Position numbers and translations under genes: made by a program. The notes below the pieces were generated by a model. It was not told the origin of the DNA. It did not search any database and was given only the letters and a program-made list of their open reading frames with translations. A stretch of DNA of 64,000 nt from Patescibacteria group bacterium (GTDB taxonomy: Bacteria; Patescibacteriota; Saccharimonadia; Saccharimonadales; VXPC01): the NCBI GenBank assembly GCA_039028495.1, contig JBCCHY010000001.1, positions 3,528 through 67,527 on the forward strand. Direction: 5' to 3'. This document shows, one piece after another, positions 19,185 through 38,501 of this stretch (its first letter is position 1; each line of letters begins with the position of its first letter).

Positions 19185-19275
<91 letters not shown>

Positions 19276-19401: not shown

Positions 19402-19494
19402 TGGCGGAGAGAGAGGGATTCGAACCCTCGCGCCAGCTTGCGCCGACCTACAGCTTTAGCAAAGCCGCCCCTTCAGCCACTTGGGTACCTCTCC
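19402..19494 (-). tRNA. tRNA-Ser (anticodon GCT), class II with long variable arm
   Basis: Reverse complement GGAGAGGTACCCAAGTGGCTGAAGGGGCGGCTTTGCTAAAGCTGTAGGTCGGCGCAAGCTGGCGCGAGGGTTCGAATCCCTCTCTCTCCGCCA; anticodon loop TTGCTAA. Confidence 0.85.
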
Positions 19495-19554: not shown

Positions 19555-20217
19555 CTACTTAGATCGTATTAGTACGGCGCCGTATACATGTTTCGCCCCG
19601 GCTTGCTTAAGTAGCTTGGTGCAGGCTGTTAACGTTGCGCCTGTAGTATATATATCGTCTACCAGCAGAATCCTCTCGGGTACTACCCTAGAAGCAGCAA
19701 TCGCATACTGTTCTTTTGCCTGCCTGAGCCGTGCGGCCCTGCTAGAACCTACCTGTTTGCTGGTACCTACCCTGCGCAGTAGCTGATGGCTGGCAAGCTG
19801 CTTTCTAGACGCTAATTCGTGAGCTACTACAGCAGCATGGTCAAACCCACGCTCACGCACTCTGCTGTAGGCTGATGGAACATGAGTTACACCAAACTCG
19901 TCTAGATAGTCCGGGGATATCTCGCCCATCAGGGCAGCTGCTGCGGTGCAAGCATCTTTGTTGGATGAGTATTTTGCGCTGGAGATCAGTCTGCGGGCAG
20001 GGGAGTCGCTTGTGCTGAAGAAATAACACGTGTCCATGCCTGTTGTTTTTCGGCAAGGGCTGCACAGCCGGTAGTCCTTTGACAGCGCACCACAAACAAT
20101 GCAGCTGGGTGGGGCAGCCTCCATCTCTTCCGTGCAGTCATCATGTAGTAGTTTTGATTCTCTACCACACACAATGCACAGATCCGGCGCAACAACTCTC
20201 ATAAATCTACGAATCAT
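19555..20217 (-). CDS. comFC: ComF-family protein (double zinc-ribbon plus phosphoribosyltransferase domain)
   Basis: 220 aa; N-terminal CxxC...CxxC pairs; C-terminal PRTase motif ILLVDDIYTTGATL. Confidence 0.75.
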   Translation of the reverse strand: MIRRFMRVVAPDLCIVCGRESKLLHDDCTEEMEAAPPSCIVCGALSKDYRLCSPCRKTTGMDTCYFFSTSDSPARRLISSAKYSSNKDACTAAAALMGEISPDYLDEFGVTHVPSAYSRVRERGFDHAAVVAHELASRKQLASHQLLRRVGTSKQVGSSRAARLRQAKEQYAIAASRVVPERILLVDDIYTTGATLTACTKLLKQAGAKHVYGAVLIRSK

Positions 20218-20623: not shown

Positions 20624-21082
20624 TTACTGGACGGTTATTTTCTTAACAGTATCTTGCTTAACCTTAGTAAACGACACCGTCAAAACCCCATCCTTAAGAA
20701 GCGCCTCGATCTCGTCTTCTTTAACAGGTACAGGTAGAGTGATGCTTCGAGCAAATTCACCCCAGTAGCACTCCTGGACAAAGTAGTTATCAACATCATC
20801 TTCTACACCTGCAGACAGAGTCCCGCGAATGGTCAGAGTGTTATCTGCGATGCTAACATCCAGGTCTTCTTTATTGACTCCAGCGACGCGGCATTTAACC
20901 ATCAGTCGCTCTTTTGTCTCGTAGACGTCTAACGCTAGTTGACCTGGCAGGTCGGCCTGCTCTTCGCTCCAAGAGTCGTCCTGCTGACCCTCTGTTGCTT
21001 GCGGCTCTGCTATTAGATCGTCATCTCCGAGGAACGCAGCCGTTAGCTCTTCCTCAACAAATAGTTCATCATTTTCATTCAT
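20624..21082 (-). CDS. Hsp20/alpha-crystallin family small heat-shock protein
   Basis: 152 aa; alpha-crystallin domain (LALDVYETKERLMVKCRVAGVNKEDLDVSI...GVLTVSFTKV). Confidence 0.85.
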   Translation of the reverse strand: MNENDELFVEEELTAAFLGDDDLIAEPQATEGQQDDSWSEEQADLPGQLALDVYETKERLMVKCRVAGVNKEDLDVSIADNTLTIRGTLSAGVEDDVDNYFVQECYWGEFARSITLPVPVKEDEIEALLKDGVLTVSFTKVKQDTVKKITVQ

Positions 21083-21287
21083 TTTCTCGCTAACCCTCCT
21101 TGGTCTTGCTCCGAATTATACGGTGTAGGGGGCGGGGGCTGCAAGACTTTGTTGTACCTTTAACTGATCCTGTAGAGCTTCCCCAAACCCTGCCGATGTT
21201 TCTAGCCTGGCTTGGGAGAGTTCTACTTGAAAAAGAAACAGCCCCGAGATCCAGGGCTGTTTCGCTACTTCTAGCCTATGCGTCGTA

Positions 21288-21725
21288 TTAGACTCGGCCG
21301 AGCACGAACCTAACTATTGTCTGCGCGAGCGCTACAACTACTAGGCCAATGATGGCGTAGAGGATTGTATCCTTAGCTGCTTTGACTCCAGCCTGGTCGC
21401 CACCAGATGTGATGTACTTGAAGCCAGCATAGATAATCATGATTACGGCAACAACACCGATGATCCATGAGAATATGTCGATTATAGTCGTGACGATGTT
21501 GTTTATATCGTCAGTAGCAGCTGTTGTATCACAATTAGACGCGTCTGAGTCAAACTTCAGGTCAGCACCTTGACATAGCCTGTTCTCAATATTAGTTGTT
21601 TCCGAAGATCCGCCTGGGGCAGGGGTTTCCTGGGCCAGAACCGTACTCGAACCTACAACAGGTAGCCCTAACGGCAATGCTGCTGCGAAGAGACTGATTA
21701 CAAGTATTTTGAGTTTACTTAGCAT
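21288..21725 (-). CDS. T4SS pilin-like protein (TrbC/VirB2-like), paralog 1
   Basis: 145 aa; signal peptide, Cys-containing variable region, conserved C-terminal module IIGVVAVIMIIYAGFKYITSGGDQAGVKAAKDTILYAIIGLVVVALAQTIVRFV shared by all five neighbours. Confidence 0.65.
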   Translation of the reverse strand: MLSKLKILVISLFAAALPLGLPVVGSSTVLAQETPAPGGSSETTNIENRLCQGADLKFDSDASNCDTTAATDDINNIVTTIIDIFSWIIGVVAVIMIIYAGFKYITSGGDQAGVKAAKDTILYAIIGLVVVALAQTIVRFVLGRV

Positions 21726-21805
21726 TTAGTTAATCCTTTTTTATCACTATATGGTTATGATTATAGACGTATTAGCTCGGAGCGTCCACTATAAATAGGG
21801 GGTGC

Positions 21806-22231
21806 CTAGCCAGCTGCTGGGTCAACTGCCTCAACTGCGCCCGGGGTTCCAGTCGCCTCGTTGATGACAAATCGCACAATCGCCTGAGCCATGACTACCA
21901 CTGCTAGGCCTACCAGTCCGTAGATGATACCGTTTCGAGCCTGGCCAACTTTCTGAGCGTCACCGCCTGCCAGGATGAATCTCAGGCCAGACACTATTAT
22001 CATGATCACAGCAATCACTCCAACCACCCAGCTGAGTATGCTGATCACATTGCCGACTAGGTTATTAACTTCTGTTTCGGCATTGCCACCAGGGCCACCG
22101 GCTGCGTCTACGCCGCGCAACACATCGCTGCCGTCCTGTGCGCTAGCAGTCCCCGTCATGAAGCCTATTAGGGCAATTACCACCATCAGGCTGATCGTGC
22201 TGAAGGCATCTATTTTTGTGAGTGTGTTCAT
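21806..22231 (-). CDS. T4SS pilin-like protein, paralog 2
   Basis: 141 aa; VVGVIAVIMIIVSGLRFILAGGDAQKVGQARNGIIYGLVGLAVVVMAQAIVRFV module. Confidence 0.65.
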   Translation of the reverse strand: MNTLTKIDAFSTISLMVVIALIGFMTGTASAQDGSDVLRGVDAAGGPGGNAETEVNNLVGNVISILSWVVGVIAVIMIIVSGLRFILAGGDAQKVGQARNGIIYGLVGLAVVVMAQAIVRFVINEATGTPGAVEAVDPAAG

Positions 22232-22261
22232 TTTTTATCCTTTTTATCAGATTGACTGATG

Positions 22262-22870
22262 TTAACTATACCATATTCTCTGGTTTTCAGCTGGTCTGGT
22301 CATATAGGTTGTTTCGGATTCTGCGCTCGGAGTTTCAGTAATCCGCTCTACCATGTAGGCAACTATCGGGGCTGCAAAGGTCGCTATGACTGCTCCGACT
22401 AGTGCATATATTATCGTTTGGCGAGCACTCGACGTCTTGGCCGGATCACCGTCGGACAGAACGTATCTGATGCCGCCAACCACAATCATGATTACGGATA
22501 TGATTCCCGTTGCGACTGCAATTAATCCTGCGATGCGGCCAACTAGTGTCGGTGCGTCGCCATCGACGGTTATGACTTCTCCTAGAGCAAACCTGGTGAT
22601 CGCAAATCCAAATATCGCTACTGCCATACCGACACCGGCATAGATGATGCCGTTCTTTGCCTGAGACGTCTTGCCCGGATCGCCACCTGATAGGGCGTAG
22701 CGCATACCCTGCAGTGTGATCATCAGCACACTGAGCGCACCCAGCACGCTAAACGCCAGAGTCAGGACATCGCTCACCGTTTCCTGTGCACTACCTGTGC
22801 TGATCTGGGGGAGAGAGTCAGGTCTCTCCAGAACAATTTGTGCAAAACCAGCGATCATATCTAGAACCAT
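22262..22870 (-). CDS. T4SS pilin-like protein with two tandem pilin modules, paralog 3
   Basis: 202 aa; two copies of the hydrophobic-helix / GGDPxKT / hydrophobic-helix module (LQGMRYALSGGDPGKTSQAKNGIIYAGVG... and VGGIRYVLSDGDPAKTSSARQTIIYALVG...). Confidence 0.6.
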   Translation of the reverse strand: MVLDMIAGFAQIVLERPDSLPQISTGSAQETVSDVLTLAFSVLGALSVLMITLQGMRYALSGGDPGKTSQAKNGIIYAGVGMAVAIFGFAITRFALGEVITVDGDAPTLVGRIAGLIAVATGIISVIMIVVGGIRYVLSDGDPAKTSSARQTIIYALVGAVIATFAAPIVAYMVERITETPSAESETTYMTRPAENQRIWYS

Positions 22871-23427
22871 AGGAACCCCGCGCTACCGTCTACAAGCGTT
22901 GTATGTACCCATTCCAATATTAGTCGTACAGAGCCAGCAATAACCGCTCCGACGATGCCATTGATGATAGTCTGACGAGCATCGTTTGTCTTGTCCGGCG
23001 ACCCATCACTAGCGACGTATTTGAACCCACCAACTATAGTGAAGCCTACAGCGACAATACCTGCGAGCGATACGATCGCGATCAGAACATTGTTGGCAAT
23101 TATCAGGATGGGGTTTTGATCTGCATCACCACTCAGCACGTCACCTGTATCCAGATCATCGCAGTTAGACAGGCCACGATCCCAGGTAGGTATACCGAGT
23201 ATGCTACGGTTCTCGGCATCGCCTTCACATCCACTAGCGCTTACACCCGGTTCAGGCGTAGAGTCCTGCGCATATACACTCGGTGTACTCGCTAAATGTA
23301 GTGCAGGAACAACCAGAGAGAGGAGTGCCACGAGTACAATGAGCTTACGTTTTATCATGCGAAAACTCCTCCGGGTATTAGATAGTTCAGAAATGCGTAG
23401 AGGCCTAGGAATGCCACGTAGGCCCAA
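22861..23427 (-). CDS. T4SS pilin-like protein, paralog 4 (probable true start at ATG 23358)
   Basis: 188 aa ORF; likely start MIKRKLIVLV whose ATG overlaps the upstream gene's TGA (ATGA coupling); C-terminal module IVGGFKYVASDGSPDKTNDARQTIINGIVGAVIAG. Confidence 0.6.
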   Translation of the reverse strand: MGLRGIPRPLRISELSNTRRSFRMIKRKLIVLVALLSLVVPALHLASTPSVYAQDSTPEPGVSASGCEGDAENRSILGIPTWDRGLSNCDDLDTGDVLSGDADQNPILIIANNVLIAIVSLAGIVAVGFTIVGGFKYVASDGSPDKTNDARQTIINGIVGAVIAGSVRLILEWVHTTLVDGSAGFLWF

Positions 23428-24053
23428 ATAGCATTGTATATACGATTCTTGGCTGACTGAACTCTCTGGGGGTTACCGTTGCTAGCAGAGTACTGAATAC
23501 CCCCTACTGCAGCCACGGCAACAACAATCAATGTCGTCAGCAGTGCCATGACGTTCAGTATGCCGTTGATCAGATTAAACAATTCACAATTACTGTGGGA
23601 TGTACACGTACTACTTCCTCCGCTTGATGAGGTGCTACCACCTAGTGCAGCTGGTGTACCCGCGTCAATAGCTCCCGATGGGCATTCACCTGTCGTATAT
23701 AGCTCTAGTCGACCAGTGCCGTTATCACAAAACGCCCCGTCAGAGCCTGTGACCGCTGTGGCTGGACCACCATCATTGATCGCTGGACAGCCAGATGCGT
23801 CTTCTGTGTAATAGACTCCGCGGTTTGAGCCCGATAGAACAGCCTCTTCAAACACACACAGTGCACCACCACTGGTTGTAGGTTGTTGTCCATCTGGACA
23901 ATCGTCACCGGCACCGTATTCAAAAACACGCCCAATATCGTCATAACAGGTCAGTGCGGCAACATTTTGTACATTTGGCTGAACCATGACAAAGAGAGCT
24001 CCGGCGAGCACCGGGACAATTAGCAGTTTTAGATTTTTTAGTTTTGCAATCAT
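23355..24053 (-). CDS. T4SS pilin-like protein, paralog 5, with Cys-rich extracellular region
   Basis: 232 aa; signal peptide, ~12 Cys in the variable region, C-terminal module VVAVAAVGGIQYSASNGNPQRVQSAKNRIYNAIWAYVAFLGL. Confidence 0.6.
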   Translation of the reverse strand: MIAKLKNLKLLIVPVLAGALFVMVQPNVQNVAALTCYDDIGRVFEYGAGDDCPDGQQPTTSGGALCVFEEAVLSGSNRGVYYTEDASGCPAINDGGPATAVTGSDGAFCDNGTGRLELYTTGECPSGAIDAGTPAALGGSTSSSGGSSTCTSHSNCELFNLINGILNVMALLTTLIVVAVAAVGGIQYSASNGNPQRVQSAKNRIYNAIWAYVAFLGLYAFLNYLIPGGVFA

Positions 24054-24151
24054 TTCTAATACTCTGTCAATTATCCCTCAATTAGCTTAATAAGTATAGC
24101 CCTATTCAAACTGTAGTAATTGTTACGTCTATAGGTTATATTAGTGCTTAA

Positions 24152-25852
24152 GTGATGAGAGCTAAAATAAAACAATTTCTTGGTCAGGGGTTGGTGCTAC
24201 TTGTGGCATTGTTTGCGATTAGTTCGCTACAAACTGCAAATGTCCACGCCGACCATGTTACTAACGGTAGTGACTTCCCGGGAACCGTTACAGCTGAAAT
24301 CATCGGCATAGATACCGTCCAGATTACTATCGATCGCGACCCTCAGGCTAATGGTCGAGATGACCCACCGCTTACATTTACGCTCTTTAACGATAGAGGT
24401 CTCCACAACCCAGACAATAAACCAACCGCAAAATTCGAAGCAGGTGACCAAGAAGGCATTCCAGAATACCAATGTGGTGACGATGCATGGAGCTCAAAAT
24501 TAGTCATAAATGACTATCCATACATTGGCGATCAGCCGACAAGCTTCACCGCTAACCTAGGATTCCACTATCCGGTAACCGTAGGAGACTGCTCGATAGA
24601 GTTCAGAGTCAGCGGACTAGCTGTCTCTAATGCACTCTCGGGCGACACCGGTGTCTCTCCAGGGGCTGAAAACTATATATTCGATGGTGGAGAAGTAAGA
24701 TCAGCTGATGGTCAATTCTGCTATCGTCAAGATCCACTGCTTGATTCACGGGTGCAGGCGGGGGCATATGTTCAGTATGAATGCGGCTCAGGTCCTGTCA
24801 GATATCGACCAGAGTGCCCCGACTTCTTTTTATTTGGTGGATCAGAAGCTCAGCTTGAAAACACCTCACCACTGACCTTTGATCTCATCCAAAGGTTTGA
24901 GGAGAGAACAGGCGCTGATAGATGTAGATCCGCAGCAAACGCTGTCAGAACCGCAGTATCAGTAGTCAATAACGCCGCCTTACCCGAAGACAGCCAGGTC
25001 ACCACAGGACCTAACTCACCAGGATCAGGTGAGGGGGTTCAGGACTGTGAGACTACTGGCTATGACGAGTCTAGACTCTCCTGGATCATTTGTAGCGCCC
25101 TAGAGCTTGCGGACAGGGCTCTAACCTGGATCGATGGACAGATCGCCGACCAGCTGCGCATAAATGTTGATGAGCTACGAAACGAAGATAGCTACCGTAA
25201 GGCCTGGGGTGCTATGCGTAACCTGGCAACGGTATTCATTATCATTACCGCGTTCGTGATGGTTATCTCTACCGCATTAGACGTCAATGTATTCAGTAAC
25301 TACACGGTTAAAAAATACTTGCCTAGACTGGTGCTGGGCACAATATTCATCCAGCTCTCGTGGGTTCTGGGCCTACTCACGATAGAGGCCGCTGGGTTCC
25401 TGGCAGATGGTATAGAGTTCCTGTTATTCACCGCGTTTAACGGTGACGGGGTTGTGCAGAATCTCAATCTAACCACTCTGTTTGAACACTATATACAAAG
25501 AGAGGGATTGACTACAGCGGCGACAGGCGTTGGATTTGCAGGACTCATCGCCGCAGGTGCTCTACTGAGTCTGGGCGGGTTCTTTGCGATTTTGGCACTC
25601 GCCTGGTCAGCGGCCGGGTTCCTATTTTTCGCCTGGATATTCCTCATCATCAGACAGCTACTAATATTCACACTGATCATCATGGCGCCGCTGGGTATAT
25701 CACTATGGATCCTGCCGGGCAGCGATAGGGCCTGGGGACTATACCGCAAACTGTTCTTTATACTGCTATATATCGAAATAACCATGGTCTCTATATCGGC
25801 AATTGGTAAAATAATGGCCTGGATAACAATCGGCGCACCGGGGAGCCTCTAG
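24152..25852 (+). CDS. VirB6/TrbL-like polytopic membrane protein of the T4SS-like locus
   Basis: 566 aa; signal peptide and ~330-aa extracellular domain, then at least 6 TM helices (ATVFIIITAFVMVIS... FAWIFLIIRQLLIFTLIIMAPLGISLWIL) in VirB6-like topology; divergent from the pilin array. Confidence 0.55.
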   Translation: MMRAKIKQFLGQGLVLLVALFAISSLQTANVHADHVTNGSDFPGTVTAEIIGIDTVQITIDRDPQANGRDDPPLTFTLFNDRGLHNPDNKPTAKFEAGDQEGIPEYQCGDDAWSSKLVINDYPYIGDQPTSFTANLGFHYPVTVGDCSIEFRVSGLAVSNALSGDTGVSPGAENYIFDGGEVRSADGQFCYRQDPLLDSRVQAGAYVQYECGSGPVRYRPECPDFFLFGGSEAQLENTSPLTFDLIQRFEERTGADRCRSAANAVRTAVSVVNNAALPEDSQVTTGPNSPGSGEGVQDCETTGYDESRLSWIICSALELADRALTWIDGQIADQLRINVDELRNEDSYRKAWGAMRNLATVFIIITAFVMVISTALDVNVFSNYTVKKYLPRLVLGTIFIQLSWVLGLLTIEAAGFLADGIEFLLFTAFNGDGVVQNLNLTTLFEHYIQREGLTTAATGVGFAGLIAAGALLSLGGFFAILALAWSAAGFLFFAWIFLIIRQLLIFTLIIMAPLGISLWILPGSDRAWGLYRKLFFILLYIEITMVSISAIGKIMAWITIGAPGSL

Positions 25853-26998
25853 ATGCTACAAGAAGAAGTTGAACTACTGATCGCATTTGTCCTACTGGCA
25901 GGGTCAGTCTTCGGGGCTGTATTTTTGGCTACTCGCGCCGTAGCTGGTGTCCTGGGCATATTCGGTATACAAAACGACCCAACCAAAGGTATCCTCGACC
26001 GCGGCAAAAACTTCCTCAACAAAAAAGGAGAAGCACGCAAGCAAAGAAATGCTGAACAAAAACAGCTTGATGCCGCGAGCCGTCTTGCCAGAGACGCCCG
26101 TACTGGTGGGGCAAAAGGCGTAGGTAGAAGAGCAGTCAGAAGAGCGACCGGAGGAACGCTCAGAGATCGAGCTCGTACAGGAACCTTGGGGGTTGCTCCT
26201 GTGGGTACTTCTGCGAGGGCAAGAAAAAGAAAGAGGGCAGATACATTGGTGCAGGGTAATGAAGCGGACCTTGCAAGAAAGATTCAACAGGCGAGAGTTC
26301 TTGAGTCAGAAGACAAATACTTCAATACAGACGTCGACTCTATTGATGCATCACAGAAAGCGGCCGTCGAGAAAGCGGCTATTGATAATGCGACCGCATT
26401 AATAACTAGACAGACCTCACAAATGGGTTTTGTAGATAAAATGAACCACCTTCAAGAGCTCTCCTTAGACGAATCGGCAAGCAGTGAACAAAGAAGAGCT
26501 GCGATAACCATGATCACCAAAAACAAACAATATGGTAGGCTTGCTAGCATACAGGGGGAACTGGCAGACAGGGGTTCTGGTGGTGCAGAGTTATGGCGTA
26601 AAGCGCTCGGTGATAACTATAGTGATTTTAAAGAACTAGGCGCAGGATTAACGGTTGATCTATCCGACGGAAACGATAGAGTCAACAGAAAGACCGGTGA
26701 AGTCACCATAACCGGATCAAAGAACTCTTCACGAGTTGCAGCAGATCGGCTTGTTGAGATGGCCAAGCTTGATGATAAAACGCTTTCACTACAAGATGCG
26801 GGCGCACTACGAGAGTTTATGTCTGTACCCGTAATTGTGACTGATCCAGCAACCGGTGCGACAGTGAATACTGGCGACAGAGGTGCCGCAATAGCAGGTG
26901 ATCATACCTTACCAGTAGGTGCGCCAGGAAGAAGCGGTAGCGAAAAACTTCAGAGTGAAATGGCTCCAGAAAATATCGACATTCTACGCAGAACATAA
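25853..26998 (+). CDS. Hypothetical membrane-anchored protein (T4SS-locus associated)
   Basis: 381 aa; ATG immediately follows the stop of the VirB6-like gene; N-terminal TM then basic/charged region. Confidence 0.45.
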   Translation: MLQEEVELLIAFVLLAGSVFGAVFLATRAVAGVLGIFGIQNDPTKGILDRGKNFLNKKGEARKQRNAEQKQLDAASRLARDARTGGAKGVGRRAVRRATGGTLRDRARTGTLGVAPVGTSARARKRKRADTLVQGNEADLARKIQQARVLESEDKYFNTDVDSIDASQKAAVEKAAIDNATALITRQTSQMGFVDKMNHLQELSLDESASSEQRRAAITMITKNKQYGRLASIQGELADRGSGGAELWRKALGDNYSDFKELGAGLTVDLSDGNDRVNRKTGEVTITGSKNSSRVAADRLVEMAKLDDKTLSLQDAGALREFMSVPVIVTDPATGATVNTGDRGAAIAGDHTLPVGAPGRSGSEKLQSEMAPENIDILRRT

Positions 26999-27994: not shown

Positions 27995-28990
27995 TTGTAC
28001 TTGCACCTACTCGAATCACCACTGGAGAAAAGTCTGACTACTGTTATAATAATGCTCATGGCAACCTATAAAGTTCTGCAGGACATAGAGGCAGAAGACA
28101 AGCTGATCGGGCCGCTGACGTTCAAGCAGCTGGTGTTTGGATTCATTGCTGCCGGGATCATGTTTCTCGGCTGGTTTGTAGCACGCAGTAGCAGCATATT
28201 CATATTCATTCCATTCTTCATCCTGGCCAGCCCATTTTTATTTCTGGCGGCACCCATAGGGCAGGACCAGCCTAATGATGTCTGGCTAGGCGCTCGGCTA
28301 CGATTTTTTTTCAAACCGCGCGTACGTAAGTGGGACCAGACAGGGCAAAGCGAATACGTCACCGTAACTGCCCCAAAGCGTGAAGAGCACGTATACACAG
28401 ATGGATTGGAGCAGACAGAGGTAGAAAGCCGCCTAAAGCTACTCGCCAACACACTAGACAGCCGCGGCTGGGCGGTTAAAAATAGCAACGTAAACCTAGA
28501 AAAGGTGACCAGCGCTAGCACCATGAGCGATGGGGCGCGACTCGTCCATCCGGGCGACCTGCCGCAAGAGGTGCAGCAAGTGGACATACATGCTAGTGAC
28601 GATATGTTTGATGGTACCGCTCGTATTGGCCAGAACGTTGACCAGCTCATGAGTGAACGGCAGGAGCAGGCCCGTATATCAGCCGTACGCCAGATGCAGA
28701 CAACGCCGACTAGCGGACAAGTTCTAGAGGCAGAGTTCCTCGACCAGCTCCACAAACAGCAGGACCGTCTAGGCATACATCATGGTGACGAAGTAGCTGA
28801 AGCCAGAGACGTCGGTCACTCAGCAGTAGCGGCAGAACGAAAAATACCGGAGATACCAAAAGCCCCAGATACTAACCAACAGCTGGGGGCGGTAAATGAC
28901 CTGAAAGTATCGACGCTCGCTAGTCTGGCGAAAAACAAAAAATCCGGTGACGATACACTTACCGACGATACGGTGATAGAATTACACTAA
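27995..28990 (+). CDS. PrgI/VirB3-like membrane protein with long C-terminal extension (start possibly at 28055 or 28061)
   Basis: N-terminus MATYKVLQDIEAEDKLIGPLTFKQLVFGFIAAGIMFLGWF plus a second TM helix resembles PrgI-family (VirB3-like) proteins that precede VirB4 in Gram-positive-type T4SS. Confidence 0.5.
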   Translation: MYLHLLESPLEKSLTTVIIMLMATYKVLQDIEAEDKLIGPLTFKQLVFGFIAAGIMFLGWFVARSSSIFIFIPFFILASPFLFLAAPIGQDQPNDVWLGARLRFFFKPRVRKWDQTGQSEYVTVTAPKREEHVYTDGLEQTEVESRLKLLANTLDSRGWAVKNSNVNLEKVTSASTMSDGARLVHPGDLPQEVQQVDIHASDDMFDGTARIGQNVDQLMSERQEQARISAVRQMQTTPTSGQVLEAEFLDQLHKQQDRLGIHHGDEVAEARDVGHSAVAAERKIPEIPKAPDTNQQLGAVNDLKVSTLASLAKNKKSGDDTLTDDTVIELH

Positions 28991-29003: not shown

Positions 29004-29870
29004 ATGAATCCAAATAACCAAGCACCAGGACAACCAGGACAGGCGGCCGCTCAAGCCCCGGTCAATCCTACCCTGGCTCCAGTCAACCCTGGAGCAATCA
29101 CTGGAGGCCCACAGCCTGGTCAGCCAAAACCTGCGGTATCCGTAAACCCCAATAGCACCCAAAACACCCTGCAGGTAGCAGAGGTCCGTGACGGTATCGT
29201 CATCATGGCCGATGGATCATTCCGGGCCGTTGTCATGTGTAAAGCCATCAACTTTGACCTCATGAGCCCTCAGGAAAAAGAGGGTGTAGAGTACGCCTAT
29301 CAGGGATTTCTAAATTCCCTCTACTTTGACATCCAGATATCTGTCAAATCTCGCCGCGTAGACGTCAAACCATATCTAGAGAAACTGACCAAAATCCGCC
29401 GCGAACAGGACAATATGCTGCTCGGTCTACTCATGGAGGACTACATATATTTCCTCGAGGATCTCACGCAGCAGACTAATATCATGGACAAAATGTTCTA
29501 TGTCACGATCCCATACTATGACACTAGCCTATCTGCCGCCAACATCTCTCGCAGTACCAAAAATATCTTTGCCAACATATTCTCATTCAATAAAACTCCG
29601 GACAAAGTAACAATAGACGAAAATGCTCTGGAGCAGGCTAAAACAGAGCTCCGTAACCGCGTCCAGGCAATCATGCAGGGATTACAGGCCTGTGGGGTCC
29701 AGAGCCTACCACTTGATACAGAGGAGCTGATCGAGCTCTACTACGATAGCTATAACCCAGATACTGCAACTAGGCAAAAGCTCAAAAACTTCGGTGGACT
29801 GTCTCAGGATGTTATTGGCAAGGGTGACGGTGTTGCCAGTACGGATCACTTGAATCGGAGTGTCCAGTAA
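29004..29870 (+). CDS. VirB4-like ATPase, N-terminal domain encoded as a separate ORF (Pro/Gln-rich leader plus TcpF/PrgJ-type N-domain)
   Basis: 288 aa; IVIMADGSFRAVVMCKAINFDLMSPQEKEGVEYAYQGFLNSLYFDIQISVKSRRVD matches the N-terminal domain of Gram-positive-type VirB4; stop TAA overlaps next ATG (TAATG). Confidence 0.5.
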   Translation: MNPNNQAPGQPGQAAAQAPVNPTLAPVNPGAITGGPQPGQPKPAVSVNPNSTQNTLQVAEVRDGIVIMADGSFRAVVMCKAINFDLMSPQEKEGVEYAYQGFLNSLYFDIQISVKSRRVDVKPYLEKLTKIRREQDNMLLGLLMEDYIYFLEDLTQQTNIMDKMFYVTIPYYDTSLSAANISRSTKNIFANIFSFNKTPDKVTIDENALEQAKTELRNRVQAIMQGLQACGVQSLPLDTEELIELYYDSYNPDTATRQKLKNFGGLSQDVIGKGDGVASTDHLNRSVQ

Positions 29871-31801
29871 TGTTCGGTAAAAAGAAACAGCAGGTAGACC
29901 CCGTTACTCTGGCTCAGCAGCAGCGCATGCAGGAACAAGTAGAGGTCCAGCACGCCTTTCAAAAAGGCGTCACAGCACTACGTGACTTTATCGCCCCCAG
30001 TAGCATCATGTTCGAAGGCGGCTACTTCCAGCTCGGTACGCGCTATGCCCGCACATACTATGTGTATGGTTACCCGCGCAAGGTATATACCGGCTGGTTA
30101 AGCGGTCTCATAAACATCGATGAAGTCATGGACATGTCGATGTTTATCTACACTGCCGACAGCCAAGTCGTACTAGAAAACCTACGTAAAAAGGTTGGTC
30201 AGCTAGAGGCGGGTATAAGCCTCGACAATGAAAAGGGCCGCGTCCGTGACCCGGCCAAACAAGCAGCGATCCTGGACGCTGAAGAAATGCGAGACAAACT
30301 ACAGGTGGGTGAAGAGCGCTTCTTCCGCTTTGGACTGTACTTCACAATCTACGGCAATAGTTTTGATGAGCTAGAGTTCATTAGCCACAAGGTAGAAACA
30401 ATGCTCGGTAACCAACTGGTATACAGTAAACCAGCCAGCGCCCAGCAAGAACAAGGCCTCAATAGCACCATCCCGCAATTTGTCGACCAGCTACAAATTA
30501 GGCGCAATATGAACACGGGTGCTATCAGTACTTCATTCCCATTCACTAGTGCCGACCTGACACAGGAGAGCGGCATTCTCTACGGTGTAAACATGCACAA
30601 TTCTGGGCTAGTCATTTTTGACCGCTTCGGTTTAGAGAACAGCAACAGCGTGGTTTTCGCGAAATCTGGTGCAGGTAAAAGCTTTACCGTCAAACTCGAA
30701 GCCCTCCGCCAGCTAATGCTTGGCACAGAGATCGTCATTATCGACCCAGAGAATGAATACCAGCGCATGTGTGAAGCAGTCGGCGGATCCTATCTGAAAC
30801 TCAGTCTCAATAGCCCAACCAGAGTCAATCCTTTTGACCTACCAAGAGTAGTTGATGCCGAAGACGGTGAGAACGCCCTGCGGTCTAACCTGATTACACT
30901 ACATGGGCTGCTGCGTCTTATGATGGGTGGGGCACAGGCCCAGCTAGCGGCAGGTGGGGCAGCTACCATGCCGGTGCTCACCCCGAGTGAAGAGGCAGAC
31001 CTAGATGCAGCCCTCATTACTACCTACGAAAAGGCCGGTATCACCAACGACCCGCTAACCCATGGTAGCCCTCCGCCGACCATAGCTGATCTCTACGATA
31101 CTCTGCTGCACATGGGCGGCTCTGGGCCTCAGCTTGCACAGCGACTGCGTAAATATACCAGCGGCACATTCGCCGGTATATTCAGCCAGCAGAGCAACAT
31201 TGATATGGATAATCCGCTTGTCTGCTTTAACGTGCGGGACCTAGAGGACGAGCTACGACCAGTGGCTATGTATATCGTGCTTAACTACATCTGGAACAAG
31301 ACCAAGGCTGACCAGAAGCGCCGTATCCTGGTCGTTGACGAGGCCTGGCAGCTAATGAAATATGAAGACTCTGCTAATTTCCTTTTCAGCCTGGCAAAAC
31401 GAGCCCGTAAGTATAATCTAGGTATCACGACGATCACTCAGGATGTAGAGGACTTCATGGCATCTCGCATGGGTAGGGCAATCGTCGCCAATGCGAGCAT
31501 GCAGATACTGCTCAAACAGTCTCCAAGTGCTGTCGACGTTCTCGCAGATGTCTTCAAGCTAACGAGCGAGGAAAAGAAACGTCTTAGTCAGTTCCCTGTC
31601 GGGCAAGGGCTCTTTTTCGCCGGTCAAAACCATGTCCATATACAAATTCTACCGAGCGCAACCGAGCAGGAGCTCATCACAACTAATCCGGATCAGATCG
31701 CTGCTCTGCAGCAGGCCCAGGAGCAGCCTCAGCAAACAACAAATCTAAACGACAGCCTCATGCCTGGTGTCGGTGATAGCTCCGAAATCCAGCTCCACTA
31801 A
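29870..31801 (+). CDS. virB4: VirB4-like T4SS ATPase (central and C-terminal ATPase domains)
   Basis: 643 aa; Walker A FAKSGAGKSFTVK, Walker B ILVVDEAWQLM, VirB4-type middle region (GYFQLGTRYARTYYVYGYP...GWLSGL). Confidence 0.8.
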   Translation: MFGKKKQQVDPVTLAQQQRMQEQVEVQHAFQKGVTALRDFIAPSSIMFEGGYFQLGTRYARTYYVYGYPRKVYTGWLSGLINIDEVMDMSMFIYTADSQVVLENLRKKVGQLEAGISLDNEKGRVRDPAKQAAILDAEEMRDKLQVGEERFFRFGLYFTIYGNSFDELEFISHKVETMLGNQLVYSKPASAQQEQGLNSTIPQFVDQLQIRRNMNTGAISTSFPFTSADLTQESGILYGVNMHNSGLVIFDRFGLENSNSVVFAKSGAGKSFTVKLEALRQLMLGTEIVIIDPENEYQRMCEAVGGSYLKLSLNSPTRVNPFDLPRVVDAEDGENALRSNLITLHGLLRLMMGGAQAQLAAGGAATMPVLTPSEEADLDAALITTYEKAGITNDPLTHGSPPPTIADLYDTLLHMGGSGPQLAQRLRKYTSGTFAGIFSQQSNIDMDNPLVCFNVRDLEDELRPVAMYIVLNYIWNKTKADQKRRILVVDEAWQLMKYEDSANFLFSLAKRARKYNLGITTITQDVEDFMASRMGRAIVANASMQILLKQSPSAVDVLADVFKLTSEEKKRLSQFPVGQGLFFAGQNHVHIQILPSATEQELITTNPDQIAALQQAQEQPQQTTNLNDSLMPGVGDSSEIQLH

Positions 31802-31855: not shown

Positions 31856-34675
31856 ATGGGAATTTTCAGAGGTGACAACCAGGACGACGGCTACGAGCCT
31901 GACGCTCTTGCTCCCGATGCAGCAGAAACACCCGACAATACTCACCACACTGCTGAAGCCGAACAGGCTCAACTGGCAAACATACTGGCTGAAAACGGCG
32001 TGTATGATGCCGAGGATCAAGGGAGTTTTTATACGGGCCCCATTGCTGAGGCAGAGGATGAGGCTGCGGCAAGCACAGAGGAAACATCTAATGATGACCT
32101 AGAGAGCGGTCGCCTGGGTAGTTTTTACCAGGCAGCGGCCGCACGGACCTCTCCATCAAAGGGCAAAATATTCGGTGCACTGGGGTTGTTTGTTGCCCCT
32201 TATCTATTCCTGCTGCCATTACTATTCACACCCGGATTCGACCTAGAGCATATCAACCGCCTGACGACGGCTTTTAGGTTTGGGCATTTCCACACACAAC
32301 TCGGCAAACGAGTAAACCATCTAGCTAATTTCCAGATAGCCTACACTGCAGGGGGCGCCGACTATATAGAGGGTAGAAATATACCAAACTACGAGAGAAC
32401 CACCATGTTTCAGCGCATGGTTGGATCGGATGCAAAATCTGTCTGGGATAAATACGGAGACAGATTTACTCCTGTCTATGAACGCAGGGCAACGACCCTC
32501 GGACTTAGACGTCTAACGTCAATTACGGACGAAGTCACTGGCATAACCTATAGCACTAGACGAACCCCTGATCTGAGAGCGCTCGAGCAGCTCACTGCTA
32601 GCCTGGACCCAACCGATGCCCAAGTCGGAGTGCTCAGAACTAGGCCTGAGATATCCCTGTTTGCCCGAAATAACGGCGTGCCGTTCAGTAGGTTCGCACT
32701 TATAGTTAGCAAACTGAGAGAAAACCATCCTGACGTTGATACCAGACAAAAGGTGCGTGCAGAAGCAACTAAAGAAAGGCGCAATGCTACAAAACCAAGA
32801 GCAACCACCTTTCAAACCTTGGCGGGAGCTGGTCAGGAAGAGCTGAGCGATGGCTTCGTAGAGCAAATTGAATCGGGTGAATCACCTGGCAGAGCTCGCC
32901 AATGGCTCGCCGACAATCTCGAGTTTAATAAAAAGGTGCTCCTAAATACTGGTAGGCTCAGTGTAGCTGTTGGATTGGGTACAATTGCCTGCGTCTTCAG
33001 GGATGCTGCTGACACTATAGAGCAGGGTATCGTGGATAGAACACGAGGGCTCATGGTTCAGGCATCAGACACAGAGACAAATGTGTCTCAAAACAGACTT
33101 GGCTTAAACCCCGCCGAGATTGCAGCAGTGCTATCTAGCGATTTTGACGGACATGTACGCTCTGCAGCCTGGGCAGCATCAATGAAGGGCGTTCCTGTTG
33201 AAGAGACCGATCCAGATTTTAATTTTAGTAATCTATTCAACTTTAAAAATTATCTGGGAATATCAGTACGTACAGTCCTAGAGTTTGATAGGGCTATAGA
33301 CTTTGCTATCGACAACATACCTTCAAACCCTGCTGAGGTGTTAACAGACATTGGCGAAGCTATTCCTGTAGTGGGTAGTCCTTTTGGACTAATTGATAAT
33401 TCTTTTGATAGTCTCAAAAGAAGAGCTGCTGATGAAGGTTGCAAACATATCCTCAACCCGGGAGTGCAGATCGGCCTCACCGTAGTAGAACTCGTAGGTA
33501 CTGTAATTCTGACCTTCTTTACTGGACCGCTTGCAGGAACCGCTAAAGGAGGAGCTGGTGCGGTGATATCGCAGATTGCTAGATCAGTTGCCACCACCAG
33601 AGCAGCTGTTTCGTTAGGAGCGAGCATAGGGGCAGATTGGCTAATATATAACTGGATAATCCCGCGAGCGATAGAACAAAGTACAGGCATAAGCACCACC
33701 TACCTACCAGGTGAGGGCGCCAGGAATGTTGAAATACTGCTAGAAGGAAGTCGGCTCAATGCTGAGTCTGTTTCTCTCACGAGCGGGGGCACCATTACGA
33801 GCTCTGAGGTAGCGCTGGCGGCAAGCTTTGACCATATGCACAAATATCGAGAGTCTTTCACAGACCGCGGACTAGCCAGTAACCTCTTTGACCTAGACAA
33901 TCCATATTCAGGCGCCTCTAGTCTCGCCTCTAGCATACCTAGTAGTGTAAAAGACGGCGGTCAAAGCGTAGCTAGTCTGGCTTCATCAGTTTTTAGCGGA
34001 AGTGCGCTTATGAGCATATTTGGCGGTTCAGCATCAGCGCAGACCCAGAATAGAGACTTTAGAAACAACGGCCAGGCCTATATAGATCTCCTCTACGCAG
34101 GCAGTAGCTTTGGTGTTGGTTTTAACGAGCAGGAAATGACAGGCGAGGACCTAGACTTTGACCATGTAATAAACAGTGACTACGTCGAAGCAGATCTGCC
34201 GATACTGCTGGAGGAGTACGGCAAGTGTATAACCGTAAATTATCATGATCTAGTCCTCGTGGAGAGTGGCGTCATTAGGGATGATGAGCGTAAAAAAGAG
34301 TTAGGATATCCAGAAGAGTGCTACGATCGTGATGCACGTAGACTGCTGATCTACTGGTCCGACTGCAACACTGCCGTTAGCCTGCGCGAGGTAAGTCAGC
34401 TGCGCAGTGCCTTTTACTCGACCGAGTGTGCTCAGGATCTCGCGCCAGAGCTGCTGACCGCTGCACCGGTGAACGAGGAAGACTATCGCTATAATACTGC
34501 TCCCTACAGACTGCTGGCTGCCGCGCAGGACAAAGAGGCAAAGGAGCGGACCTTTACACAAAAAATCGGGGCTGAGCTGCGCGAGCTTCACCAAACAAGC
34601 CTTGACATGCGCGGGGACGTTTATGCAGCTACAGACGAGCCAGCCATCGCCTCGAGAAGGAGCACACTACTATGA
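31856..34675 (+). CDS. Large hypothetical membrane protein of the T4SS-like locus
   Basis: 939 aa; acidic N-terminus, TM hairpin near residue 100 (IFGALGLFVAPYLFLLPLLF), second hydrophobic block near residue 540-600; no catalytic motif. Confidence 0.5.
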   Translation: MGIFRGDNQDDGYEPDALAPDAAETPDNTHHTAEAEQAQLANILAENGVYDAEDQGSFYTGPIAEAEDEAAASTEETSNDDLESGRLGSFYQAAAARTSPSKGKIFGALGLFVAPYLFLLPLLFTPGFDLEHINRLTTAFRFGHFHTQLGKRVNHLANFQIAYTAGGADYIEGRNIPNYERTTMFQRMVGSDAKSVWDKYGDRFTPVYERRATTLGLRRLTSITDEVTGITYSTRRTPDLRALEQLTASLDPTDAQVGVLRTRPEISLFARNNGVPFSRFALIVSKLRENHPDVDTRQKVRAEATKERRNATKPRATTFQTLAGAGQEELSDGFVEQIESGESPGRARQWLADNLEFNKKVLLNTGRLSVAVGLGTIACVFRDAADTIEQGIVDRTRGLMVQASDTETNVSQNRLGLNPAEIAAVLSSDFDGHVRSAAWAASMKGVPVEETDPDFNFSNLFNFKNYLGISVRTVLEFDRAIDFAIDNIPSNPAEVLTDIGEAIPVVGSPFGLIDNSFDSLKRRAADEGCKHILNPGVQIGLTVVELVGTVILTFFTGPLAGTAKGGAGAVISQIARSVATTRAAVSLGASIGADWLIYNWIIPRAIEQSTGISTTYLPGEGARNVEILLEGSRLNAESVSLTSGGTITSSEVALAASFDHMHKYRESFTDRGLASNLFDLDNPYSGASSLASSIPSSVKDGGQSVASLASSVFSGSALMSIFGGSASAQTQNRDFRNNGQAYIDLLYAGSSFGVGFNEQEMTGEDLDFDHVINSDYVEADLPILLEEYGKCITVNYHDLVLVESGVIRDDERKKELGYPEECYDRDARRLLIYWSDCNTAVSLREVSQLRSAFYSTECAQDLAPELLTAAPVNEEDYRYNTAPYRLLAAAQDKEAKERTFTQKIGAELRELHQTSLDMRGDVYAATDEPAIASRRSTLL

Positions 34676-35961
34676 GCCTGATTACGAAAATTACCGAGAA
34701 GCTATGGGGGATGACTGCTACACTGCTAGTACTCTCGGTCATTCTGGCGCCGACCACGTCCGCACAGTCTACCTTCAACGAAGGGGCCGCTCACCTGTAC
34801 CCTTGGTTTGACTATCGTGACGACGGCTCTTTCCTCGCGAACTATTCGCCCGATAACTGTAGCGTAGCTTCAAATCTCGTCGGTGGCGACCATCAAGAAA
34901 AGGCCTTTAACTTCTTTATCGGCGAAGGGCGTGGACTCTCTGCACCCCAATCAGCCGGCATAGTCGGAAACTTAATGGTCGAGTCCTACGACGAGATCAA
35001 TCCAACTGCAGAGTATCCCGGAAGCGCCAGACCCTACGGCATAGCCCAGTGGACAGACAACGGTGGCAGAAGAGATAGAATGCTAACGTGGGTAAACTCA
35101 GCCCTAAAGGACCGAGGAATTGACACCGGAGACGATCCATATACATATTTCAGTGAAGCCAGTGCTCCGTCCAGTGATGAGTTAGAAATCTATTTTGAAG
35201 TGCAGCTAGAGTTCATTTGGTACGAAATGACCCAGGGCGACGAAACGCTAGCACTCACCGAACTACAAAAGACAAACTCTGCTATTGAAGCGGCAACAGC
35301 CTTTGAGAAGTACTACGAAAGGGCTAATGGTCAGAAGCTGGAAGATCGTATAGCTAACGCAGTCGGTATTCTAAATAAATATGGCTCTAACTACGGTGGA
35401 GATGTCAGCTCTGATAGCCGCATATGTGGACAGGCAGGTAGTGGTGAAATTGTTGGTGACTGGAGCTTACCACTGAGAAGAGCGCTGTTTGATCAGAATC
35501 AGTACTGGTTCAACAAACCCCACCATAACAAGAACGAAGCCGTAGACCTAGAGGCGTCTCCCGGTGAAGAGGTCTACTCTATGACTTCTGGAACGATTAT
35601 AAACGCAGGTACTGGTACAACGGATCTATGTGGCCTGGGTGTAGTCGTTCAGTCACCAGACGGGACTCAGTTTATCTACTGCCACGGTCTCGATGGTGGC
35701 TCCGTTGATGGGGCCCGCATTAATGATACCGTAAAGGCCGGTCAGCTAATCATGCATAACGGATCCACCGGAAACTACCCGCTGGACCATCCAGACCCAG
35801 ATCTGAGAGGTAAACCTTCCTCGTCAGGGCCTCATCTACATCTTGCGATTCAGACCCCTGATGGCGCCAGAAGATGCCCACAAAAACTGCTTGAATCAAT
35901 TTACAACAAGGCTCCGATCAGCCCCGAGTCGCTTGCCACGTCAGGATGTACCAAAGGATGA
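34672..35961 (+). CDS. Secreted peptidoglycan hydrolase: lysozyme-like (phage-tail-lysozyme type) domain plus M23 peptidase domain
   Basis: 429 aa; signal peptide; SAGIVGNLMVESYDEINP...YGIAQWTDNGGRRDRML (lysozyme-like); C-terminal HHNKNEAVDL ... GSTGNYPLD...GPHLHLAIQ (M23 HxxxD / HxH). Confidence 0.7.
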   Translation: MSLITKITEKLWGMTATLLVLSVILAPTTSAQSTFNEGAAHLYPWFDYRDDGSFLANYSPDNCSVASNLVGGDHQEKAFNFFIGEGRGLSAPQSAGIVGNLMVESYDEINPTAEYPGSARPYGIAQWTDNGGRRDRMLTWVNSALKDRGIDTGDDPYTYFSEASAPSSDELEIYFEVQLEFIWYEMTQGDETLALTELQKTNSAIEAATAFEKYYERANGQKLEDRIANAVGILNKYGSNYGGDVSSDSRICGQAGSGEIVGDWSLPLRRALFDQNQYWFNKPHHNKNEAVDLEASPGEEVYSMTSGTIINAGTGTTDLCGLGVVVQSPDGTQFIYCHGLDGGSVDGARINDTVKAGQLIMHNGSTGNYPLDHPDPDLRGKPSSSGPHLHLAIQTPDGARRCPQKLLESIYNKAPISPESLATSGCTKG

Positions 35962-38491: not shown

Positions 38492-38501
38492 GGAGCGACC
38501 A

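What the first reader, a model, noticed from the sequence alone, without database searches (positions are those of the whole stretch)
21288..24053. Array of five consecutive paralogous pilin-like genes (six pilin modules), each with a different variable ectodomain
Five adjacent minus-strand ORFs share a conserved C-terminal module: hydrophobic helix, then G[GA]FKY/RY..S.GD..K....AK/R, then a second hydrophobic helix. Their N-terminal or mid regions differ completely. One is Cys-rich (paralog 5) and one carries two pilin modules in tandem (paralog 3). Start and stop codons overlap between neighbours (for example ATGA at 23355-23358), indicating co-translation. Multiple divergent pilin subunits next to one secretion machine could mean a heteropolymeric filament, or surface or antigenic diversification.
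Basis: seen in the sequence. Interest (0 to 1): 0.6.

Follow-up and report, generated by a model that had tools for sequence, protein, structure and literature searches.

The report
Saccharibacterial T4SS pilin gene array
These five genes are the already-described set of six VirB2-like pilin modules next to the chromosomal type IV secretion system of Saccharibacteria; the one new detail is that two neighbouring pilins are fused into one gene here, and such neighbour fusions recur in related genomes.

Summary
Five adjacent minus-strand genes (21288-24053) carry six homologous helix-loop-helix modules. All six match Pfam T4SS_pilin (PF18895), and p1 also passes the TrbC/VirB2 threshold. The genes lie divergently next to a monoderm-type T4SS (VirB6/TrbL-like, PrgI/VirB3, TrsD-like, VirB4, cell-wall hydrolase) in a Saccharibacteria MAG.

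This array is already published. Papers describe an essential series of six sequence-divergent VirB2-like pilins in Southlakia epibionticum, six small secreted proteins in TM7x, and 441 such arrays across Patescibacteria.

What I add, from 42 complete related arrays:
- 33 have exactly six modules.
- Classes 1, 2, 3 and 6 are perfect positional orthologues; class 4 mostly is, and class 5 resembles class 6.
- Extra copies are always of the distal class 5/6 type.
- Class 1 is long and Cys-rich. Class 3 lacks a canonical signal peptide.
- Neighbouring genes are fused in frame at different junctions (1+2, 2+3, 3+4 as here, 2+3+4). The total was six modules in all but one case checked.

This favours a fixed, non-redundant heteromeric pilin set over interchangeable antigenic variants, at least for classes 1-4. 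Assembly into a pilus remains inferred. Verdict: an ordinary new member of a known kind.

The parts
23355..24053 (-). p5, class-1 pilin. It has a signal-peptide-like N-terminus, an ectodomain of about 120 aa with 8 Cys, one pilin module (residues about 158-226), and a C-terminal ...PGG... tail.
   Evidence: ORF. PF18895: 25.0 bits, E 2e-5. Cys positions. Best hits are all rank 1 in other genomes.
22861..23358 (-). p4, class-2 pilin. It has a signal peptide, a 2-Cys loop containing ILGIPTW, and one module (residues about 87-151). Its ATG overlaps the p5 stop codon (ATGA).
   Evidence: The class-2 loop motif occurs only in rank 2. Rank-2 best hits.
22262..22870 (-). p3, an in-frame fusion of a class-3 module (residues about 28-99) and a class-4-position module (residues about 109-178). 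It has no canonical signal peptide and no Cys. NCBI starts it at the ATG at 22858.
   Evidence: Two PF18895 stretches, E 2.7e-19. Four hydrophobic segments. AF2 predicts four long helices, at low confidence. P0001 is 100% identical and 198 aa. Fused homologues P0002-P0005.
21806..22231 (-). p2, class-5 pilin. It has a signal peptide, a short Cys-free ectodomain, one module (residues 53-122), and its own AAGGA ribosome-binding-like site.
21288..21725 (-). p1, class-6 pilin, the most conserved and most canonical of the set. It has a signal peptide, an LCxGA...C loop, and one module (residues 67-144).
   Evidence: PF18895 E 6e-15 and TrbC/VirB2 33.9 bits against a 27.9-bit cut-off. AF2 hairpin at pLDDT about 90. 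Named 'pilin' by NCBI. 3684 homologues.
21235..21263 (-). Intrinsic-terminator-like hairpin (13-bp stem plus T run) that closes the array, 25 nt after the p1 stop codon.
   Evidence: sequence.
21760..21788 (-). Promoter-like site (TGGACG-17-TATAAT, 10 of 12 matches) in the p2-p1 spacer. It may be a separate promoter for p1. This is a consensus match only.
   Evidence: The number of sites in the region is not above the shuffle expectation.
24054..24151 (.). Divergent intergenic region between the pilin array and the T4SS operon.
24152..26998 (+). VirB6/TrbL-like polytopic membrane protein, present here as two abutting ORFs of 566 and 381 aa.
   Evidence: The 566-aa ORF (24152-25852) is homologous (E 9e-40) to the single 887-aa TrbL_3 protein of L081. 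The 381-aa ORF (25853-26998) was not compared directly.
27995..28990 (+). PrgI / VirB3-like protein.
   Evidence: PF12666, E 3.3e-10.
29004..31801 (+). TrsD / VirB4-N-terminal-like protein (29004-29870) followed by the VirB4-type ATPase (29870-31801).
   Evidence: The VirB4 is about 80% identical to those of more than 500 Saccharibacteria species genomes.
34672..35961 (+). Cell-wall hydrolase (lysozyme-like domain plus M23 peptidase), a VirB1/PrgK analogue.
   Evidence: PF18013 E 1.2e-22 and PF01551 E 4.2e-11.

Best explanation
The five genes encode the six-member VirB2/TrbC-family pilin set of the chromosomal, monoderm-type type IV secretion system of a Saccharibacterium.

Each module is a membrane helical hairpin. 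The N-terminus and variable ectodomain face outward, the basic G-x-[KR]-[YF]...G-D...A-[KR] loop faces the cytoplasm, and the C-terminus faces outward. Four proteins enter through Sec with a cleavable signal peptide. The class-3 module, which heads the fused p3 protein, has only an acidic N-tail. It probably inserts without cleavage, in a YidC- or Sec-assisted way.

The VirB4/VirB3/VirB6 machine encoded divergently next door is then inferred to extract the pilins from the membrane and assemble them into a wall-spanning tube or pilus directed at the host bacterium.

The six classes are not interchangeable. Classes 1-4 (p5, p4, and the two halves of p3) are single-copy, order-conserved and translationally coupled. 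They are probably fixed-stoichiometry minor, tip or adaptor subunits. Classes 5 and 6 (p2, p1) are the most canonical and the only ones that vary in copy number. They probably form the bulk of the filament.

What is shown: family membership, six-fold paralogy, T4SS linkage, positional orthology and fusions. What is inferred: topology, polymerisation, and the major/minor roles. The confidence of 0.55 is for the whole statement, including the inferred heteromeric filament. For the shown part alone (a T4SS-linked set of six VirB2-family pilin paralogues) I would give about 0.9.
For: Family:
- PF18895 hits on all six modules, and TrbC/VirB2 above threshold for p1.
- A sub-threshold match of all five proteins to the Mycoplasma ICE pilin-like family NF045849.
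- p1 is named 'pilin' by NCBI and has 3684 homologues, most also carrying PF04956.
- The AF2 model of p1 is a confident two-helix hairpin.

Linkage: the array is divergent from VirB6/TrbL-like, PrgI, TrsD-like, VirB4 and hydrolase genes. The same layout occurs in every complete related locus.

Non-redundancy:
- 33 of 42 complete arrays have exactly six modules.
- Best hits in another genome fall at the same rank for 33/33 (classes 1, 2, 3, 6) and 26/33 (class 4).
- There are class-specific traits: the Cys-rich class 1, the class-2 loop motif, and the signal-peptide-less class 3.
- Extra copies in arrays of 7-9 are all class 5/6.
- In-frame fusions of neighbours occur at four different junctions. 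In all but one fused array checked the total stays at six modules: window 5 genes, L081 4 genes, L082 5 genes; L004 has seven modules.
- In 1+2 fusions the downstream signal peptide is lost but its ectodomain is kept, as expected if the module's C-terminus is outside.

Literature:
- The pilin series is essential in S. epibionticum (PMC10633639).
- Reviewers describe six structurally conserved, sequence-divergent VirB2-like pilins (PMC12857230).
- Tubular structures that may be T4SS pili have been seen at a parasite-host interface in a bacterium of a metabolically reduced lineage studied in a 2026 preprint (10.64898/2026.06.21.733656).
Against: - No filament made of these proteins has been demonstrated.
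- Gram-positive T4SSs normally lack VirB2 pili.
- The Foldseek search of the p1 model against the PDB gave no significant match (best E 0.85). A conjugative pilin appeared only at E 5.1, because a helical hairpin is generic.
- A profile search of PDB sequences found nothing.
- p5 is just under the Pfam cut-off.
- p3b cannot be assigned confidently to class 4.
- The major/minor assignment rests on conservation, copy number and a consensus promoter match that is not above chance.
- My 80 loci are the closest relatives only (VirB4 about 80% identical), so the six-fold rule is shown for this clade and not for all Patescibacteria. Published arrays range from 2 to 11 genes (PMC12102498).
Confidence: 0.55

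Rival explanations
1. Antigenic or host-range diversification. The paralogues are alternative, interchangeable major pilins that let the epibiont vary its surface or recognise different host strains. This reading is suggested in PMC12102498 by analogy with Bartonella and Anaplasma VirB2 arrays.
For: Between species the ectodomains are only 15-25% identical, against 38-57% for the modules and about 80% for VirB4. Class 5/6 copy number varies from 2 to 5.
Against: - Classes 1-3 and 6 are strict positional orthologues across 33 genomes, which points to ancient, maintained paralogues rather than recent turnover.
- Each class keeps its own signature.
- Neighbouring classes are repeatedly fused into one polypeptide. 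That forces co-expression at 1:1, the opposite of alternative use.
- The pilin series is essential in S. epibionticum (PMC10633639).
Confidence: 0.15
2. Secreted effector or toxin-like complex. The small Sec-signal proteins are substrates exported by the T4SS, like pertussis toxin subunits next to ptl. This is the reading of PMC7427843.
For: Four of the five proteins have signal-peptide-like N-termini. The array sits beside a T4SS that lacks a relaxase and coupling protein (PMC10633639, PMC12102498).
Against: After the signal peptide, every module has two strongly hydrophobic helices (Kyte-Doolittle 1.7-3.0 over 19 residues). Every module also matches pilin families. The published similarity to the pertussis S1 subunit was 11% identity (PMC7427843).
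Confidence: 0.04
3. Membrane-resident channel parts. The hairpins stay in the cytoplasmic membrane as a hetero-oligomeric ring or accessory of the VirB6/VirB3/VirB4 translocon and never polymerise into an extracellular filament.
For: - Monoderm T4SSs work without pili.
- The fixed number (six) and the fusions suit a closed complex of defined stoichiometry as well as, or better than, an open polymer.
- There is no direct evidence of a filament.
Against: - p1 meets the TrbC/VirB2 Pfam threshold.
- Class 5/6 copy number is free to vary, which suits a polymer subunit.
- The large, fast-evolving, disulfide-containing ectodomains suggest exposure beyond the membrane.
- Tubular structures have been seen at a parasite-host interface (10.64898/2026.06.21.733656).
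Confidence: 0.25

Closest known systems
Pilin array of the Saccharibacterial T4SS: Southlakia epibionticum ML1 SEML1_0006-0019 region, Nanosynbacter lyticus TM7x 'secreted protein array', and the 'VirB2 arrays' of Patescibacteria
   Same: - Same phylum-level clade.
- Same gene family (PF18895/PF04956).
- Same position beside VirB6/PrgI/VirB4, near yidC-jag-recF.
- Same number (six) of sequence-divergent pilins (PMC10633639, PMC12857230, PMC12102498, PMC7427843).
   Different: Here six modules are packed into five genes, because classes 3 and 4 are fused and the class-4 signal peptide and Cys loop are missing. The papers I could read do not mention fusions, positional orthology or signal peptides, and so not the signal-peptide-less class either.
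VirB2 / TrbC / TraA conjugative pilins of diderm T4SSs (Pfam PF04956)
   Same: A signal peptide followed by a two-helix hydrophobic hairpin with a short basic loop. p1 passes the Pfam threshold. A VirB4 ATPase is encoded nearby.
   Different: - The host is a monoderm.
- There is no VirB5, VirB7-10 or relaxase in the neighbourhood, no VirB11 or VirD4 family matched there, and four large T4SS-region ORFs remain unassigned.
- There are six paralogues instead of one.
- The N-terminal ectodomains are long, variable and Cys-containing.
- Tandem two- and three-module proteins occur.
- p3-p5 do not reach PF04956.
Tandem virB2 paralogues of Bartonella and Anaplasma phagocytophilum
   Same: Several divergent VirB2 genes in a row beside a T4SS, as cited in PMC12102498.
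   Different: Those arrays are thought to serve antigenic variation. The arrays here keep order, class identity and number across species, and neighbours fuse.
Mbov_0395 / MMCAP2_0565 pilin-like conjugal transfer protein of Mycoplasma ICEs (NCBIfam NF045849)
   Same: An 80-residue hairpin module in a monoderm MPF-FATA-type system. All five window proteins match it (E 4e-10 to 5e-5).
   Different: All scores (22.8-39.2 bits) are below the 40-bit equivalog cut-off. As far as I know it is a single gene in ICEs, not a six-member chromosomal array.

Membership tests
Pfam PF18895 T4SS_pilin | Score at or above the curated gathering threshold (26.6 bits). | tested here: met
   p1 55.5, p2 43.9, p3 69.5 (two stretches) and p4 43.1 bits. 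p5 scores 25.0 bits, marginally below the threshold, but is homologous to the others at z 7.9-12.4.
Pfam PF04956 TrbC/VirB2 pilin | Score at or above the gathering threshold (27.9 bits). | tested here: inconclusive
   p1 scores 33.9 bits (met). p2 scores 23.5 bits (below). p3, p4 and p5 give no hit. Many p1 homologues carry both PF18895 and PF04956.
VirB2-type conjugative pilin | Cleavable signal peptide followed by a two-helix hydrophobic hairpin joined by a short basic loop. | tested here: met
   Hydropathy analysis and -3/-1 rule sites for p1, p2, p4 and p5. AF2 hairpin 67-106/111-144 at pLDDT about 90. p3 lacks the signal peptide. The signal peptides were judged by heuristic only.
VirB2-type conjugative pilin | Structural match to a solved conjugative pilin. 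| tested here: inconclusive
VirB2-type conjugative pilin | Polymerises into an extracellular pilus in a VirB4-dependent way. | not testable with these tools
   This needs microscopy or biochemistry. The only indirect evidence is in the literature (PMC12857230; 10.64898/2026.06.21.733656).
Saccharibacterial T4SS pilin array | Several PF18895 genes in tandem, adjacent and divergent to virB6/prgI/virB4 on the chromosome. | tested here: met
   Window layout. The same layout is found in L001-L082, with 33 of 42 complete arrays having six modules.
Saccharibacterial T4SS pilin array | Essential for epibiotic growth. | not testable with these tools
   Shown only for S. epibionticum by Tn-seq (PMC10633639).
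NCBIfam NF045849 Mbov_0395 pilin-like conjugal transfer protein | Score at or above the 40-bit equivalog cut-off. | tested here: not met
   Scores are 38.5, 23.9, 39.2, 22.8 and 30.6 bits. These are related proteins, not members.

The most novel reading that the evidence does not exclude
The six pilin classes form one obligate hetero-oligomeric structure of fixed subunit order, either a heteropolymeric VirB2 pilus or a tip/adaptor complex on it. Gene order would mirror physical neighbourhood. That would explain why evolution repeatedly welds adjacent genes into two- and three-module 'poly-pilins' while, in all but one array checked, keeping the total at six. This would be the first heteromeric VirB2-type conduit, and it would be in a monoderm.
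Probability: 0.35. Interest if true: 0.65.

Novelty: new member of a known kind. Interest (0 to 1): 0.3.

Why it matters
The function of the Saccharibacterial T4SS is an open question. A 2024 perspective (PMC11665869) calls its role 'completely unknown', yet it is essential for the epibiotic lifestyle.

The array itself adds nothing new. The comparative pattern does give a concrete, testable constraint on the architecture of the structure these pilins build. That pattern is six conserved classes, copy-number freedom only in class 5/6, a signal-peptide-less class, and recurrent fusions of neighbours. It also argues against the published suggestion that the paralogues are mainly a host-range or antigenic repertoire.

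Tried and rejected
- Foldseek of the AF2 p1 model against the PDB gave only generic helical hairpins and nothing significant. I do not use it as evidence for or against VirB2 membership.
- A profile of the six modules against PDB sequences gave no hit at E <= 10.
- The AF2 model of the fused p3 used only 5 sequences and reached pLDDT 55.7. I use it for secondary structure only, not for packing.
- The promoter scan found no more sites than shuffles do. The p1 promoter is therefore only a lead.
- UPGMA clustering did not separate classes 4-6, so I replaced it with a best-hit rank analysis.
- A literature search for tandem-fused VirB2 pilins found nothing. The Patescibacteria T4SS paper mentions 'fusion' only for VirB3-VirB4.
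- I considered a compositional artefact of hydrophobic proteins and rejected it.
- I considered a frameshift or assembly artefact as the origin of the two-module gene and rejected it. The same fusion occurs in four other proteins at 41-65% identity from independent assemblies.
- Rfam and tRNA scans found nothing inside the array.
Full report
**1. What is there**

Five consecutive minus-strand ORFs fill 21288-24053:
- p5: 23355-24053, 232 aa
- p4: 22861-23358, 165 aa from its ATG
- p3: 22262-22870, 202 aa
- p2: 21806-22231, 141 aa
- p1: 21288-21725, 145 aa

The p5 stop and p4 start share ATGA at 23355-23358. The p4 stop overlaps the first ATG of p3 by 10 nt, or lies 2 nt before the ATG that NCBI uses. 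The p3-p2 and p2-p1 spacers are 30 and 80 nt, each with an AAGGA Shine-Dalgarno-like element. A 13-bp-stem terminator-like hairpin lies 25 nt after the p1 stop at 21263-21235. A promoter-like match lies in the p2-p1 spacer, but the number of promoter-like sites in the region is not above chance.

**2. Is the repeat real**

Each protein ends in a hydrophobic helix, a loop G-x-[KRQ]-[YF]-x2-[SA]-x-G-[DSN]...A-[KR], and a second hydrophobic helix. p3 has this arrangement twice. All 15 pairwise module comparisons exceed every one of 500 composition-preserving shuffles, with z from 7.9 to 27 and identities of 21-57%.

Pfam T4SS_pilin (PF18895) matches every module. p1, p2, p3 and p4 score above the curated cut-off, and p5 scores 25.0 against 26.6 bits. 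p1 also passes TrbC/VirB2 (33.9 against 27.9 bits). All five match the Mycoplasma ICE 'pilin-like conjugal transfer protein' model NF045849 below its cut-off.

The AF2 model of p1, built on 71 sequences, gives a confident hairpin (helices 67-106 and 111-144, pLDDT about 90) behind a low-confidence ectodomain. Structure and sequence searches of the PDB were uninformative, as expected for a bare hairpin.

p1, p2, p4 and p5 have a basic n-region, a hydrophobic core and small residues at -3/-1 (VLA|QE, ASA|QD, VYA|QD, VAA|LT). p3 has only a short, acidic N-tail. These are heuristics, because no signal-peptide predictor was available.

The loop carries net positive charge, and the N-tail, the inter-module linker and the C-tail of p3 are acidic. 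By the positive-inside rule (established knowledge) this gives N-out / loop-in / C-out for every module. This topology is an inference.

**3. Context**

The + strand, divergent from p5, encodes:
- a VirB6/TrbL-like polytopic protein, here as two abutting ORFs (24152-25852 and 25853-26998). The 566-aa ORF is homologous at E 9e-40 to a single 887-aa TrbL_3 protein in L081
- PrgI/VirB3 (27995-28990)
- a TrsD/VirB4-N-like protein (29004-29870)
- a VirB4-type ATPase (29870-31801)
- two large unknown proteins
- a lysozyme-plus-M23 hydrolase (34672-35961)
- then yidC, jag and a RecF-like gene

Downstream of the array lie an HSP20 gene, three tRNAs and a ComF-like gene.

p1 and p3 are 100% identical to proteins of a 'Patescibacteria group bacterium' MAG on an 80.8-kb contig, and NCBI names p1 'pilin'. 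The VirB4 has more than 500 relatives in species-representative genomes. The best 80 are all Saccharibacteria/Saccharimonadales at about 80% identity.

**4. Already known**

- McLean et al. [quoted passage not shown] They compared it with pertussis toxin.
- Wang et al. [quoted passage not shown]
- Quinonero-Coronel et al. 2025 (PMC12102498) used PF18895 and PF04956 and found 441 VirB2 arrays of 2-11 genes, with mean identity 25%. They suggested the variety may help in adapting to different hosts.

The finding is therefore a further instance of a described feature.

**5. What the comparison adds**

I built an HMM from the six window modules and scanned all six-frame ORFs of the 80 loci.
- Of 42 arrays judged complete, 33 have six modules, five have seven, two have nine, one has five and one has one.
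- I ranked modules from the VirB6-proximal end. The best hit in any other genome falls at the same rank for 33/33 modules of ranks 1, 2, 3 and 6, and for 26/33 of rank 4. Rank 5 is close to rank 6, with 19/33 best hits going to rank 6.
- Window modules map to ranks 1 (p5), 2 (p4), 3 (p3a), 5 (p2) and 6 (p1). p3b sits at the rank-4 position but is not confidently class 4.
- In arrays with more than six modules, the extra copies are all class 5/6, at the distal end. For example, L005 reads 1 2 3 4 6 6 6 6 6.
- The classes have their own traits. Class 1 is long, with 1-10 Cys (32 of 33 have two or more). Classes 2, 4, 5 and 6 usually have a 2-Cys loop. Class 2 carries a C..F[FL]G[ILM]x[PT]W..L..C motif found in no other class. 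Class 3 is about 100 aa and lacks a canonical signal peptide.
- Between species the ectodomains are 15-25% identical, against 38-57% for the modules and about 80% for VirB4.

**6. Fusions**

Two-module genes occur at ranks 3+4 (window; also L082, P0003 and P0004), ranks 2+3 (L004, L022) and ranks 1+2 (L028, L030, L043). A three-module protein covering ranks 2+3+4 (P0005) occurs in L081.

The module total is six in all but one of the fused arrays checked: five genes in the window, L082, L022, L028, L030 and L043, and four genes in L081. L004 has seven modules in six genes.

In the 1+2 fusions the downstream signal peptide is gone but its Cys-loop ectodomain is retained. That is what a C-terminus-outside topology predicts. 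The window-type fusion is present in independent assemblies at 41-65% identity, so it is not an assembly error. I found no mention of such fusions in the papers read.

**7. Interpretation**

The strict positional orthology, the class-specific features, the published essentiality and the neighbour fusions all indicate six non-redundant parts used together. Fusions enforce 1:1 co-expression and require physical compatibility.

I therefore favour a heteromeric assembly. In it, classes 1-4 are minor or specialised subunits, made by translationally coupled genes, and class 5/6 are the bulk subunits. That part is inference.

Rapid ectodomain evolution and class 5/6 copy-number change leave room for host-specific surface adaptation. 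A purely membrane-resident hetero-oligomer cannot be excluded. A soluble effector role is unlikely given two transmembrane helices per module.

**8. Verdict**

The feature is a new member of a known kind, with one modest unreported twist: recurrent neighbour fusions that almost always conserve a six-module total. Interest is low to moderate.

Noticed in passing
window 24152-26998 (+); L081 2679-5342; L082 2133-4936: The VirB6/TrbL-like protein is two abutting ORFs (566 + 381 aa) in the window and in L082 (561 + 373 aa). In L081 it is a single 887-aa TrbL_3 protein. This is a natural split or fusion of the channel subunit, running in parallel with the pilin fusions.
   Followed up: partly
L081 6001-7017 (protein P0005): A 338-aa protein with three pilin modules in tandem (classes 2+3+4). 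Its array has four genes but still six modules.
   Followed up: yes
window 20624-21082 (-); L081 8247-8741; L082 7622-8080: An HSP20/alpha-crystallin gene lies directly downstream of the pilin array in all three loci, on the opposite strand in L081 and L082. This is conserved synteny of unknown meaning.
   Followed up: no
window 21288-24053, all five proteins: All five match NCBIfam NF045849, the 'Mbov_0395 family pilin-like conjugal transfer protein' of Mycoplasma ICEs, just below its cut-off. So a pilin-like hairpin does exist in monoderm MPF-FATA-type systems. This bears on the published question of where Patescibacteria obtained VirB2-like genes.
   Followed up: partly
window 22861-23358 (p4) and rank-2 genes of L013, L017, L022, L028, L030, L043, L051, L076 and others: A class-2-specific disulfide-loop motif, C..F[FL]G[ILM]x[PT]W.[YG]L...C (ILGIPTWDRGL in the window), is found in no other class. 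Class-1 proteins end in a conserved ...PGG... tail.
   Followed up: partly
window 29004-29870 (+): A separate 288-aa protein resembles the N-terminal domain of VirB4/TraC and TrsD (E 5e-8 to 1e-4, far below the cut-offs). It sits immediately upstream of the VirB4 ATPase and overlaps it by one base, so VirB4 appears split in two.
   Followed up: partly
window 31856-34675 (+), 35946-37457 (+), 27072-27938 (-), 4547-7546 (-), 7594-10074 (-): Five ORFs (288-999 aa) in or near the T4SS region had no significant Pfam match; the two that were also scanned against NCBIfam had no match there either. The ones inside the operon are candidates for the missing VirB8 or wall-spanning parts.
   Followed up: no
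window 18402-18884 (+): A 160-aa ORF gives weak PrgI (E 0.0097) and DUF6232 (E 0.003) hits. It may be a second small PrgI-like membrane protein outside the operon.
   Followed up: no
window 18965-19494 (-) and 19555-20217 (-): A tRNA-Arg(GCG), tRNA-Ser(TGA), tRNA-Ser(GCT) cluster lies next to a ComF-like phosphoribosyltransferase with a double zinc ribbon.
   Followed up: no
window 37526-40069 (+): yidC, jag (KH/R3H) and a RecF-like gene follow the T4SS operon. This matches the published observation that the Patescibacterial T4SS lies near the replication origin.
   Followed up: no
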